NCBI RefSeq assembly: GCF_036507355.1
Contig: NZ_AP027877.1
Strand: one strand, 5' to 3'
Length of the DNA stretch: 64,000 bases
DNA from: Escherichia coli
GTDB taxonomy: Bacteria > Pseudomonadota > Gammaproteobacteria > Enterobacterales > Enterobacteriaceae
The stretch's first letter is position 1, and every line of letters starts with the position of its first letter. A program made the position numbers. Positions 3,001-6,000 of this stretch are shown in pieces.

Positions 3001-6000
3001 AGCGATGTGAATAGCTGGACCTGGTCACGCACGGCGAATACTAAAGATGTGAGTAATAAAATTCTCACCAACCAGACCAACCTGACCTCGACGTTCTATA
3101 CCGCTTCTATCGGTCATGATGTCAGTACCGGCGTGGAATTTACCCGTGAAACGCAGACTAACTACGGCGTTAATCCGGTGACGTTACCTGCGGTAAATAT
3201 TTATCATCCTGACAGCAGCATTCATCCCGGCGGCCTGACGCGCAACGGCGCAAACGCCAATGGTCAGACGGATACCTTCGCAATTTACGCCTTCGATACG
3301 CTGCAAATCACCCGTGATTTTGAGCTGAACGGCGGGATCCGTCTGGATAATTATCATACTGAATATGACAGTGCCACCGCCTGCGGCGGCAGCGGACGCG
3401 GTGCCATCACCTGCCCAGCTGGTGTGGCAAAAGGTTCTCCGGTCACCACCGTCGACACCGCCAAGTCGGGCAATCTGGTGAACTGGAAAGCCGGGGCGCT
3501 GTATCACCTGACGGAAAACGGCAATGTCTATATTAACTATGCCGTTTCCCAGCAGCCTCCGGGCGGCAACAACTTCGCCCTTGCGCAGTCTGGCAGCGGT
3601 AACAGTGCCAACCGCACCGATTTTAAACCGCAAAAAGCCAACACCAGCGAGATTGGCACCAAATGGCAGGTTCTGGATAAACGCCTGTTGCTCACCGCCG
3701 CGCTGTTCCGTACTGATATCGAAAATGAAGTTGAGCAAAATGATGACGGGACTTACTCGCAATACGGTAAGAAACGCGTCGAAGGCTATGAGATATCCGT
3801 GGCAGGGAATATCACTCCCGCGTGGCAGGTGATTGGTGGCTATACCCAGCAAAAAGCAACCATCAAAAACGGCAAAGATGTTGCCCAGGATGGTTCCTCA
3901 TCGCTGCCGTATACCCCGGAGCACGCCTTCACCTTATGGAGCCAATATCAGGCAACCGATGATATCTCTGTTGGCGCGGGCGCACGCTATATCGGCAGTA
4001 TGCATAAAGGTTCAGACGGCGCGGTGGGAACGCCAGCGTTTACCGAAGGTTACTGGGTCGCCGATGCCAAACTGGGGTATCGGGTTAATCGCAATCTCGA
4101 CTTCCAGCTCAACGTCTACAACCTGTTTGATACCGATTACGTCGCCTCAATCAATAAGAGCGGCTACCGTTATCACTCGGGCGAGCCAAGAACCTTCTTG
4201 CTCACAGCCAATATGCATTTCTGATTCAGATGTGGGGCGCAGGCCCCACTTTTTGGAGAACTTGTATGATGTACCACATTCCCGGCGTGTTATCGCCACA
4301 GGACGTCGCCCGTTTTCGCGAACAACTGGAACAAGCCGAATGGGTGGATGGACGCGTCACCACCGGCGCACAAGGTGCGCTAGTTAAGAACAATCAACAG
4401 GTAGACACCCGCAGCGCGTTATACGCCGCACTGCAAAATGAGGTGCTGAACGCGGTTAACCAACATGCATTGTTCTTTGCCGCTGCCTTGCCGCGTACCC
4501 TTTCCACACCGCTGTTTAATCGTTATCAGAACAATGAAACCTATGGTTTTCATGTGGATGGCGCAGTACGCAGCCATCCACAAAACGGCTGGATGCGCAC
4601 TGACCTTTCTGCCACGCTGTTTTTAAGCGATCCACAAAGCTACGACGGCGGCGAACTGGTCGTTAATGACACCTTCGGGCAACATCGGGTAAAACTCCCG
4701 GCAGGCGATCTGGTGTTGTATCCCTCCAGCAGCCTGCATTGCGTGACACCCGTAACCCGCGGTGTACGAGTGGCATCATTTATGTGGATCCAGTCGATGA
4801 TCCGCGATGATAAAAAGCGCGCCATGCTGTTTGAACTGGACAAAAATATTCAGTCGCTGAAAAGCCGCTATGGTGAAAGTGAAGAGATCCTGTCGCTGCT
4901 CAATCTTTATCATAATCTGCTGCGGGAATGGTCGGAGATCTGACGCTTGAACTGCCCAGGTTCGTCCCTATATTAGCTACACTTAACTGTACAAGCATTG
5001 ATATGGGGAGGACGATATGGCATCCGGTTGGGCTAACGATGACGCCGTCAACGAACAGATCAACAGTACAATTGAAGATGCGATTGCCCGCGCTCGGGGT
5101 GAAATTCCGCGTGGCGAAAGCCTGTATGAATGTGAAGAGTGCGGCGCACCTATCCCGCAGGCCCGTCGGGAAGCCATACCTGGCGTGCGCTTATGCATTC
5201 ATTGTCAGCAGGAGAAAGATTTACAAAAACCAGCTTATACAGGATATAATCGCAGAGGCTCGAAAGACAGCCAGTTACGTTAACTACAACTGGCGGGATG
5301 TATAGCGAGTATAATTTGTATTTTTCGTGGCATTCCGTGCCTTTAACGCTGCCGTGACTGCCACGCGATATAAAACGGGTCCATAAGTACAACAAATAAA
5401 TGGTTTATCAGTATGTTAGATATCAATCAATTTATTTGAACAAGGCGGTCAATTCTCTTCGATTTTATCTCTCGTAAAAAAACGTGATACTCATCACATC
5501 GACGAAACAACGTCACTTAAACAAAAAATCACCTGCGAGAGATTAATTATGAAAACTATCAATACTGTTGTTGCTGCTATGGCTCTTTCAACTCTGTCAT
5601 TTGGCGTGTTTGCCGCGGAACCGGTAACGGCATCCCAGGCACAGAACATGAATAAAATCGGCGTGGTTTCTGCCGATGGCGCATCCACCCTCGATGCACT
5701 GGAAGCGAAACTGGCTGAGAAAGCGGCGGCAGCCGGTGCTAGTGGATACAGCATCACTTCCGCCACCAACAACAATAAATTAAGCGGTACTGCGGTAATT
5801 TATAAGTAATTCGTAGGACGGATAAGGCGTTTACGCCGCATCCGGCAACAGATGCCTGATGCGACGCTACCGCGTCTTATCAGGCCTACAAAATCCGAAC
5901 CGTTGGACGGATCAGGCGTTTACGCTACGTCCAGCACAAGTATTTCCCTGTCTGTTTGCCGACAGACGCATATGCTCTAACCCTCATTGATCCTATGTTA

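What the first reader, a model, noticed from the sequence alone, without database searches (positions are those of the whole stretch)
4232..4268. Terminator-like hairpin whose T-tract abuts the ybiX ribosome-binding site
Seen in sequence: the fiu stop (4224) is followed by ggggc-gcag-gcccc plus TTTTT (4232-4256), then GGAG and the ybiX ATG at 4266. Inference: ybiX expression may depend on partial read-through of this terminator from the Fur-regulated fiu promoter (attenuation-like coupling), or the hairpin may mask the RBS.
Basis: seen in the sequence. Interest (0 to 1): 0.25.

Follow-up and report, generated by a model that had tools for sequence, protein, structure and literature searches.

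The report
Leaky terminator hairpin between fiu and ybiX
The hairpin is real: it is an ordinary-looking but widely conserved "leaky" transcription stop signal between an iron-receptor gene (fiu) and its partner enzyme gene (ybiX), so the partner gene can only be expressed from transcripts that read through it.

Summary
The fiu stop is at 4222-4224. A 7-bp GC-rich hairpin, GTGGGGC-GCAG-GCCCCAC, lies at 4232-4249 (-14.4 kcal/mol; 0 of 200 shuffles fold as well). It is followed by T5 (4250-4254), GGAG (4255-4258) and the ybiX ATG at 4266.

Published Term-seq for E. coli K-12, whose hairpin is identical, places the "primary" fiu 3' end on the last U of the tract (equivalent to window 4254) in iron-poor M63 medium. 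The hairpin therefore marks a real transcript end.

Only 11 nt separate the U-tract from the ATG. Every ybiX mRNA must therefore be transcribed through the hairpin. fiu, ybiX and ybiI are co-regulated by Fur.

In 59 of 59 related loci with a 40-85 nt spacer between a TonB-dependent receptor gene and ybiX, the spacer holds one stable hairpin. These loci span gamma-, beta- and alpha-proteobacteria. Stem sequences differ but pairing is kept. The U-tract is conserved much less well.

The stem starts 5-10 nt after the stop codon in 33 of 34 distinct hairpin-type enterobacterial spacers. Published experiments show that a ribosome at that distance suppresses termination.

RBS masking is not supported, and no antiterminator structure is predicted. 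Verdict: a new member of a known kind, a partial intra-operon intrinsic terminator and 3' stabiliser. Interest is low.

The parts
1811..1840 (+). Fur-box-like hexamer repeats (GATAAT...TTATCA...ATTATC) and a promoter-like -10 upstream of fiu. This is the presumed source of the transcripts that reach the hairpin.
   Evidence: Seen in the sequence. A promoter-like hit lies at 1791-1818. The fiu promoter is reported as Fur-repressed in PMC4676285. Fur binding was not tested here.
1942..4224 (+). fiu coding sequence (760 aa TonB-dependent catecholate receptor), with stop TGA at 4222-4224.
   Evidence: ORF list; RefSeq annotation of matching genomes.
4225..4231 (+). 7-nt spacer between the fiu stop and the stem. 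Inferred: it lies inside the footprint of a ribosome sitting on the stop codon.
   Evidence: In relatives this distance is 5-10 nt in 33 of 34 distinct hairpin-type enterobacterial spacers. The ribosome-footprint argument comes from PMC4824070.
4232..4249 (+). Terminator / 3'-protective hairpin GTGGGGC-GCAG-GCCCCAC (7 bp, 6 G-C pairs, tetraloop).
   Evidence: -14.4 kcal/mol, 0/200 shuffles as good. Conserved with compensatory changes.
4250..4254 (+). U-tract (T5). The K-12 Term-seq 3' end corresponds to 4254.
   Evidence: PMC7815308 supplementary file 1, sheet M63 0.4: 3' end at 839219 (-), class 'primary', gene fiu. Coordinates mapped through NC_000913.3.
4255..4258 (+). Shine-Dalgarno GGAG of ybiX, 7 nt before the ATG and directly abutting the U-tract.
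   Evidence: A purine-rich SD-like motif (GGAG, AGGA or GAG) sits 7-9 nt before the ATG in all 37 enterobacterial spacers tested; GGAG in 30 of them.
4266..4943 (+). ybiX coding sequence (225 aa PKHD-type 2OG/Fe(II) hydroxylase).
   Evidence: Translation; annotation.
5017..5283 (+). ybiI (88 aa). It lies downstream, is co-regulated in the Fur-1 iModulon, and also has its own sigma-S SELEX peak.

Best explanation
The element is a partial (leaky) Rho-independent terminator inside the Fur-repressed fiu-ybiX(-ybiI) transcription unit.

When the fiu promoter is derepressed, some RNA polymerases stop at the U-tract. This gives a fiu-only mRNA whose 3' end is capped by the hairpin, and the hairpin probably also protects that mRNA from 3' exonucleases. 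The remaining polymerases read through and produce the only template from which ybiX can be translated. Its Shine-Dalgarno sequence starts immediately after the last U.

The expected net effect is more receptor mRNA than hydroxylase mRNA from one iron-regulated promoter.

Inferred refinement: the stem begins only 7 nt after the fiu stop codon. A ribosome that has kept pace with RNA polymerase would therefore occupy the 5' arm and prevent hairpin closure. Read-through, and hence ybiX expression, should then be favoured on well-translated fiu transcripts, and termination favoured on poorly translated ones.

Shown here or in the literature: hairpin, U-tract, the in vivo 3' end, the operon, and conservation. 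Inferred: the termination mechanism as opposed to trimming, the fraction terminated, ribosome gating, and the stoichiometric purpose.
For: - Anatomy and fold statistics.
- In vivo 3' end: Term-seq places it exactly on the 5th U in MG1655 grown in M63. It is classed as the primary fiu 3' end and is absent from both LB sheets, where fiu is presumably repressed.
- No room for a promoter: only 11 nt lie between the U-tract and the ATG.
- No nearby promoter match: the closest + strand sigma-70-like site upstream of ybiX is more than 1 kb away, at 3178-3207.
- Operon and co-regulation: fiu-ybiX is listed as a Fur-repressed operon (PMC4676285). fiu, ybiX and ybiI share the Fur-1 iModulon (PMC10164565).
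- Genetics: an ISKpn8 insertion in this spacer was selected under cefiderocol, and a cirA ybiX double deletion raises the MIC (bioRxiv 10.1101/2025.02.14.638246).
- Conservation: all 59 related loci with a 40-85 nt spacer carry one stable hairpin of -13.9 kcal/mol or better. Among 37 distinct enterobacterial spacers the z-scores are -2.5 to -6.8, with one exception: a nested REP-type palindrome that the uninterrupted-stem scan scores poorly but RNAfold folds at -29.3 kcal/mol.
- Stem turnover with pairing kept: GTGGGGC/GCCCCAC, GCGGGGCG/CGCCCCGT, ACGCCGCAG/CTGCGGCGT and GGGATGGTGC/GCACCATCCC, plus unrelated stems in Sphingopyxis and Oxalicibacterium.
- Covariance-model alignment of 31 sequences: 99.5% of cells paired, and 2 of 7 pairs show compensatory changes.
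- Ribosome gating: moving a stop codon to 5 bp before terminator tR2 lowers its efficiency from about 0.9 to below 0.1. Spacing above about 27 nt, or removing translation, restores it (PMC4824070).
- Stop-to-stem distance: 7 nt here; 5-10 nt in 33 of 34 distinct hairpin-type enterobacterial spacers (20 nt in the Serratia locus); 1-7 nt in the Sphingomonadaceae loci.
Against: - No measurement of termination efficiency or of coverage across the junction was available. A 3' end at the foot of a hairpin can also arise from exonucleolytic trimming of longer RNA.
- The U-tract is short (5 U) and poorly conserved. Only 10 of 37 distinct enterobacterial spacers have at least 5 T in the 8 nt after the stem. 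Seven have essentially none (some Citrobacter, Leclercia, Raoultella, Shimwellia), yet they keep the hairpin. The conserved function may therefore be hairpin-based rather than termination as such.
- A stop-to-terminator distance under 50 nt is common in bacteria, so the 7-nt spacing is not in itself unusual.
- A weak sigma-E SELEX peak inside fiu, assigned to ybiX, exists. Some ybiX transcription may therefore start inside fiu, although it would still have to pass the hairpin.
- The Term-seq 3' end was reported in one condition of one study. Other datasets I tried were not held as text or did not list the gene.
Confidence: 0.68

Rival explanations
1. The hairpin is mainly an intercistronic RNA-stability element. 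Polymerase reads through almost fully, the polycistronic RNA is later cleaved, and 3'-to-5' exonucleases stop at the hairpin. This leaves a stable fiu mRNA and a less stable ybiX part. The mapped 3' end is a trimming product, not a termination point.
For: The hairpin is kept in every lineage, while the U-tract is degenerate or absent in 7 of 37 distinct enterobacterial spacers. In Pseudocitrobacter the position is occupied by REP-like palindromes without any T-tract. About 10% of E. coli genomes carry REP/BIME elements in this very spacer. REP hairpins are a classical example of such stabilisers (malE-malF; established knowledge).
Against: In E. coli the canonical hairpin-plus-U5 is present, and the 3' end lies exactly at the end of the U-tract, as at the bona fide terminators in the same table, for example sgrS. 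The two mechanisms are not exclusive, and a terminator hairpin also stabilises.
Confidence: 0.17
2. The hairpin, extended by pairing of the post-stop bases with the U-tract and GGA, masks the ybiX ribosome-binding site. ybiX translation would then require the terminating fiu ribosome to open it (translational coupling).
For: RNAfold extends the E. coli stem by UUCAGA (4225-4230) pairing with UUUGGA (4252-4257). The probability that SD bases pair with the post-stop segment is 0.69 in the isolated 50-nt RNA. Several genera have UCC directly after the stop, which can pair with GGA.
Against: The core stem ends 5 nt before GGAG. 9-13% of shuffled post-stop segments mask the SD as well as the E. coli sequence does. 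Across 37 distinct spacers the mean masking probability is 0.28 against 0.36 for the shuffled controls, and only 12 of 37 exceed their null. The extension cannot form in the terminated RNA.
Confidence: 0.07
3. The element is a signal-responsive attenuator: read-through into ybiX is switched by iron, a metabolite, a small RNA or a protein through an alternative RNA structure.
For: Only the general position of a terminator in front of a gene. The 3' end was detected in one of three growth conditions.
Against: No alternative fold competes with the hairpin in 91- or 141-nt contexts. There is no GCCCC-type complementary segment in the 130 nt upstream. No Rfam family matches. There is no leader ORF, because the upstream sequence is the end of a 760-codon gene. 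The condition dependence is explained more simply by Fur repression of fiu in LB.
Confidence: 0.04
4. The hairpin is a functionless remnant or a chance palindrome.
For: The loose terminator pattern is as frequent as in shuffled sequence.
Against: The fold statistics, positional conservation across three proteobacterial classes with different stem sequences, and a mapped in vivo 3' end all argue against chance.
Confidence: 0.03

Closest known systems
Partial intrinsic terminators inside operons (for example the terminator between rpsU and dnaG in rpsU-dnaG-rpoD, and the rplL-rpoB attenuator)
   Same: A hairpin plus U-tract sits between two co-transcribed genes. Part of the transcripts end there and part read through, so the upstream gene is expressed at a higher level from one promoter.
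   Different: The efficiency here is unmeasured. The spacer is unusually tight: 7 nt from stop to stem, and 0 nt from U-tract to Shine-Dalgarno. The comparison with those named operons rests on my own knowledge and was not tested here.
Ribosome-repressed terminators close to stop codons (lambda tR2 constructs of Li et al. 2016, PMC4824070; the pyrBI attenuator; Wright and Hayward 1987, as cited there)
   Same: The stop codon lies 5-10 nt before the first stem base. This is the range in which a ribosome at the stop codon blocks hairpin closure and termination falls from about 0.9 to below 0.1.
   Different: Those are engineered constructs or leader-peptide attenuators. Here the upstream ORF is a full-length 760-codon gene, and the effect has not been measured.
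Intercistronic stabiliser hairpins and REP elements (malE-malF REP; REPs within 15 nt of a stop codon, Liang, Rudd and Deutscher 2015; both from my own knowledge)
   Same: A stable stem-loop directly after the upstream cistron can protect it from 3' exonucleases. REP elements occupy this very spacer in Pseudocitrobacter and in about 10% of E. coli genomes.
   Different: The window's hairpin is not a REP. It is a single copy, it does not match the REP consensus, and it is followed by a U-tract.
The co-conserved TonB-dependent transporter plus 2OG/Fe(II) dioxygenase gene pair (fiu-ybiX, piuA-piuC, cciT-cciO; bioRxiv 10.1101/2024.10.16.618771)
   Same: The same gene pair, in the same order, Fur-regulated and operonic.
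   Different: That work concerns the proteins. Its text does not contain the word 'intergenic' (0 occurrences in my search), and no passage retrieved mentions a spacer hairpin.

Membership tests
Rho-independent (intrinsic) terminator | GC-rich stem-loop of about 5-14 bp with a short loop | tested here: met
   7 bp, 6 G-C pairs, tetraloop, -14.4 kcal/mol.
Rho-independent (intrinsic) terminator | U-rich tract immediately 3' of the stem | tested here: met
   UUUUU at 4250-4254, then GGAG. That is 5 U in 8 nt, the minimum of the scan's rule. It is weak or absent in several other genera.
Rho-independent (intrinsic) terminator | RNA 3' end in vivo within the U-tract | tested here: met
   From the literature, for K-12, which has an identical hairpin: Term-seq 3' end at 839219 (-), equivalent to window 4254. 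Not measured in the strain of the window.
Rho-independent (intrinsic) terminator | Termination by RNA polymerase alone in vitro, and measurable efficiency | not testable with these tools
   Requires single-round in vitro transcription or reporter assays.
Regulated transcription attenuator / riboswitch | Mutually exclusive antiterminator structure or a sensor domain upstream of the terminator | tested here: not met
   The hairpin persists in the MFE and centroid folds of 91- and 141-nt contexts. No Rfam match. The upstream sequence is the fiu coding region.
Regulated transcription attenuator / riboswitch | Read-through fraction changes with a signal | not testable with these tools
   No quantitative coverage data were available.
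SD-sequestering translational operator hairpin | Shine-Dalgarno or start codon lies inside a stable, conserved helix | tested here: not met
   The core stem ends 5 nt before GGAG. The outer helix is E. coli-specific, not above the shuffled controls, and not conserved.
REP / BIME repeat element | Match to the REP consensus and many copies per genome | tested here: not met
   One copy in 64 kb even with 2 mismatches allowed. The covariance model hits only the ybiX-upstream spacer. The window's Rfam naRNA4 (BIME) hit is elsewhere, at 5816-5886.
3'UTR-derived Hfq-binding small RNA | Stable short RNA ending at the terminator, with a long U tail and Hfq or target interactions | not tested
   A search of main texts for RIL-seq, fiu and 3'UTR returned no report. 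The tail has only 5 U.

The most novel reading that the evidence does not exclude
The hairpin may be a ribosome-gated terminator maintained across Proteobacteria. Its position a few nucleotides after the receptor gene's stop codon would make transcription of the partner dioxygenase depend on ongoing translation of the receptor gene. The roughly 10% of E. coli genomes with a REP/BIME insertion, where the hairpin is moved 181 nt from the stop, would then be a natural variant with stronger termination and lower YbiX.
Probability: 0.22. Interest if true: 0.4.

Novelty: new member of a known kind. Interest (0 to 1): 0.2.

Why it matters
Fiu is an entry route for catechol-siderophore antibiotics such as cefiderocol, and loss of ybiX together with cirA raises cefiderocol MICs. 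This 41-nt spacer is the only route by which ybiX is transcribed, so insertions or mutations here can change susceptibility without touching a coding sequence.

More generally, the junction is a compact and well-conserved natural example of how a leaky terminator may set the ratio of two proteins made from one iron-regulated promoter. The REP-insertion allele offers a ready-made comparison.

It does not change any concept. The operon, the Fur control and the 3' end are all already in the literature.

Tried and rejected
- MAFFT alignment of 36 spacers followed by RNAalifold gave no structure. This was an alignment artefact: Klebsiella-type stems were shifted by 2 nt. I replaced it with per-sequence hairpin detection and a covariance-model alignment.
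- RBS masking by an outer helix was tested against shuffled post-stop segments and rejected.
- REP or repeat membership was rejected.
- Rfam gave no hit at the site.
- A terminator on the opposite strand was rejected. The reverse strand folds equally well (-14.6 kcal/mol) but is followed by AUCUGAA, with no U-tract.
- A regulated antiterminator was rejected because no competing fold is predicted.
- Independent 3'-end or operon datasets gave nothing. Choe 2022, Dar and Sorek 2018 and Conway 2014 had no supplementary text held. The TERMITe and SMRT-Cappable-seq supplements do not list fiu or ybiX. Beauchene 2015 expression tables are not held.
- A literature search for a fiu 3'UTR small RNA found nothing.
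- The 19-mer Fur-box consensus with at most 3 mismatches does not hit the fiu promoter. It hits only upstream of gpmA. The fiu promoter has looser hexamer repeats, seen by eye.
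Full report
**1. Observation**

Reading 4100-4400 shows the following layout:
- The fiu stop TGA is at 4222-4224, followed by seven bases (TTCAGAT).
- The inverted repeat GTGGGGC / GCCCCAC lies at 4232-4238 and 4243-4249, around the loop GCAG.
- Five T follow at 4250-4254, then GGAG at 4255-4258.
- Seven bases later comes ATGATG, starting at 4266.

Otherwise the description is exact.

The ORF from 4266 translates to a 225-aa protein. Megablast against 5,426 complete E. coli genomes finds the locus in 5,419 of them, annotated as fiu (catecholate siderophore receptor) and ybiX (PKHD-type hydroxylase).

**2. Is it more than chance?**

The loose terminator pattern is not enriched in the first 8 kb: 11 sites against 9.9 expected.

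The hairpin itself is exceptional:
- Alone it folds at -14.4 kcal/mol, with z = -3.7 and 0 of 200 shuffles as stable.
- In a 34-nt context it folds at -19.3 kcal/mol, with z = -4.4 and 0 of 200.

It is a single copy in the window even when 2 mismatches are allowed. Among seven other co-directional spacers of 15-150 nt in the window, the best stems are -0.1 to -8.3 kcal/mol, apart from one REP-like palindrome.

On the opposite strand the same palindrome folds but is followed by AUCUGAA. It is therefore a one-directional signal.

**3. Experimental evidence in the literature**

Adams et al. 2021 (eLife, PMC7815308) list a 3' end at MG1655 position 839219 on the minus strand in supplementary file 1, sheet 'M63 0.4'. 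It is classed as 'primary' for fiu, with the surrounding sequence ...GTGGGGCGCAGGCCCCACTTTTT|GGAGAAATTG.
- The 61-mers in that table run from -50 to +10. I checked this on sgrS, whose known end is the last U of its tail.
- In NC_000913.3, fiu is 839249-841531 (-) and ybiX is 838530-839207 (-).
- The 3' end is therefore 30 nt past the fiu stop, which is window 4254, the fifth U. It is 12 nt before the ybiX ATG.
- The entry is absent from both LB sheets. I infer this fits Fur repression of fiu in rich medium.

It is not met.

Other published points:
- Beauchene et al. list fiu-ybiX among Fur-repressed operons (PMC4676285).
- fiu, ybiX and ybiI are all in the Fur-1 iModulon (PMC10164565).
- Both fiu and ybiX are listed among Fur-regulated genes responding to serum in ExPEC (PMC4145685).
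- An ISKpn8 insertion in this 41-nt spacer was selected during cefiderocol resistance evolution. Its authors interpret it as separating ybiX from its promoter, and a cirA ybiX double deletion strongly raises the MIC (bioRxiv 10.1101/2025.02.14.638246).
- A weak sigma-E SELEX peak inside fiu, assigned to ybiX, and a sigma-S peak between ybiX and ybiI are reported (PMC5493296).

**4. Comparative evidence**

One scan of species-representative genomes with YbiX returned 65 loci.

*Hairpin presence*
- In every locus where a long ORF with a TonB-dependent-receptor C-terminus (...TANxHF*...LFYNF*) ends 40-85 nt upstream of ybiX, the spacer contains one stable hairpin.
- That is 59 of 59 loci, with RNAfold energies of -13.9 to -37.3 kcal/mol.
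- For 37 distinct enterobacterial spacers, the best uninterrupted stem is 7-14 bp, with z = -2.5 to -6.8 against dinucleotide shuffles. The one exception is Pseudocitrobacter faecalis, whose nested REP-type palindrome is missed by this simple scan but folds at -29.3 kcal/mol.
- In the 34 of these with a terminator-type hairpin (all but the three Pseudocitrobacter REP palindromes), the stem is 7-10 bp, -10.7 to -19.0 kcal/mol. It starts 5-10 nt after the stop, except 20 nt in Serratia sp. M24T3, and ends 13-22 nt before the ATG.

*Stem sequences turn over while pairing is kept*
- GTGGGGC/GCCCCAC: Escherichia, Citrobacter, Leclercia, Silvania, Kluyvera.
- GCGGGGCG/CGCCCCGT: Klebsiella, Raoultella.
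- ACGCCGCAG/CTGCGGCGT, ATGCCGCAGC/GCTGCGGCAT and CGCCACCTG/CAGGTGGCG: Tatumella.
- GGGATGGTGC/GCACCATCCC: Shimwellia.
- REP-like palindromes: Pseudocitrobacter.
- Unrelated GC-rich stems: Sphingopyxis and Novosphingobium (alpha), and Oxalicibacterium and Uliginosibacterium (beta).

*Covariance model*
A model built from the Escherichia-type spacers hits only this spacer in each locus, and once in the window. It aligns 31 distinct sequences with 99.5% of cells paired. Compensatory changes occur at 2 of 7 pairs, UA to CG/GC and CG to UA. That alignment is fitted to the structure, so these counts lean towards it.

*Exceptions*
Three non-enteric loci have 11-27 nt spacers and no hairpin.

*The U-tract is much less constant*
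- Only 10 of 37 distinct enterobacterial spacers have at least 5 T in the 8 nt after the stem.
- Most Citrobacter have UUUCA.
- Seven have essentially no tract: TTGCA, TCTCA, TCTCC, CCTCC, TGTTC, CTGTTC and none.

The hairpin is therefore the conserved core. Canonical terminator quality is lineage-specific, and Escherichia lies on the stronger side.

**5. Tests of the other ideas**

*RBS masking.* RNAfold extends the E. coli stem by pairing UUCAGA (4225-4230) with UUUGGA (4252-4257), which covers three SD bases.
- This helix cannot form in the terminated RNA.
- 9-13% of shuffled post-stop segments do as well as the E. coli sequence.
- Over 37 spacers the mean probability of SD pairing with the post-stop segment is 0.28, against 0.36 for shuffled controls. 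Only 12 of 37 exceed their null.
- I reject masking as a conserved function.

*Regulated attenuation.* No alternative fold displaces the hairpin in 91- or 141-nt contexts. There is no complementary GCCCC-type segment upstream and no Rfam match.

*REP element.* Rejected.

**6. Mechanism**

*Shown*
- A hairpin plus U5 sits 7 nt after the fiu stop.
- An in vivo 3' end lies on the last U.
- The ybiX SD abuts the tract, so all ybiX mRNA passes through the signal.
- The two genes share Fur-dependent co-regulation.

*Inferred*
- The signal is a partial intrinsic terminator. It yields a hairpin-capped fiu mRNA plus a read-through fiu-ybiX(-ybiI) mRNA, giving more receptor than hydroxylase message.

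*Further inference, from Li et al. 2016 (PMC4824070)*
- A ribosome protects about 10 nt downstream of the A site.
- 10-15 free nucleotides are needed before the stem.
- Placing a stop codon 5 bp before terminator tR2 drops its efficiency from about 0.9 to below 0.1, unless translation is removed or the distance exceeds about 27 nt.
- With 7 nt here, a ribosome that has caught up with polymerase should block the 5' arm. Read-through would then be coupled to fiu translation.
- This is plausible but untested. Short stop-to-terminator distances are common.

Where the U-tract is degenerate, the hairpin may act mainly as a 3' exonuclease barrier. That is the main rival explanation, and it is not exclusive of termination.

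**7. Comparison with what is known, and novelty**

The element works like the partial terminators found inside many operons, and like the ribosome-repressed terminators studied by Li et al.
- It meets the sequence and 3'-end criteria of an intrinsic terminator.
- In vitro factor independence and efficiency could not be tested.
- It fails the criteria of a regulated attenuator, an SD-sequestering operator and a REP element.

The operon, its Fur control and the 3' end are already published. The co-conservation of the receptor-dioxygenase pair is also published.

In the papers I searched and read I found no mention of two things: the near-universal hairpin at this junction across three proteobacterial classes, and its constant closeness to the stop codon. 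I rate it a new member of a known kind, of low interest (0.2). The ribosome-gating reading would raise this modestly if confirmed.

**8. Limits**

- No coverage or efficiency data were accessible.
- The Term-seq evidence is one condition of one study, in K-12 rather than the window's strain. That region is 97.3% identical in a K-12-like genome, with the hairpin and U5 identical.
- The comparative set is one genome per species, with at most 80 loci returned.

Noticed in passing
L001:1826-2040 (the allele of window 4225-4265): At least 556 of 5,426 complete E. coli genomes (including Nissle 1917 and ATCC 25922), plus E. whittamii and Escherichia sp. (L004, L005), have a 212-215 nt fiu-ybiX spacer. 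It carries two REP elements (a BIME). The insertion is flanked by a degenerate copy of the hairpin right after the stop (GTGGGGCGCAAGGCTCAC, no T-tract, z = -0.25) and by the intact hairpin plus T5 next to the SD. This moves the functional hairpin 181 nt away from the stop codon.
   Followed up: partly
window 4567-4610: An imperfect hairpin lies inside the ybiX coding region (-19.6 kcal/mol, z = -2.2). K-12 Term-seq reports an ORF-internal 3' end at 838863, 344 nt into ybiX (about window 4610), in M63.
   Followed up: partly
window ~2019: K-12 Term-seq also reports a 3' end 77 nt into the fiu ORF (841454, M63), which is a possible premature termination or processing site.
   Followed up: no
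window 5816-5886 (+): Rfam naRNA4 (RF02564, 78.4 bits) matches here. It is a REP/BIME cluster directly after the ybiJ stop (sequence).
   Followed up: no
window 29976-30120 (-): A full-length molybdenum-cofactor riboswitch is present (RF01055, 103.4 bits), presumably the moaA leader.
   Followed up: no
window 63122-63140 (+): This is the best Fur-box consensus match in the window (TATAATGAGAATTATTATC, 3 mismatches; 0.01 expected by chance). It ends 28 nt upstream of the ATG of a GpmA-like ORF (63169). From my own knowledge, gpmA is a known Fur target.
   Followed up: partly
window 6010-6041 (+): The strongest terminator-like site in the first 8 kb is here: 9 bp, 7 G-C pairs, followed by T8. 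It lies downstream of ybiJ and the BIME, facing the convergent hcxB gene.
   Followed up: no
L022, L025, L026 (Pseudocitrobacter), spacer before locus position 1501: In Pseudocitrobacter the terminator-type hairpin is replaced by REP-like palindromes of 11-19 bp with no T-tract. The receptor-hydroxylase gene order and the SD are kept.
   Followed up: no
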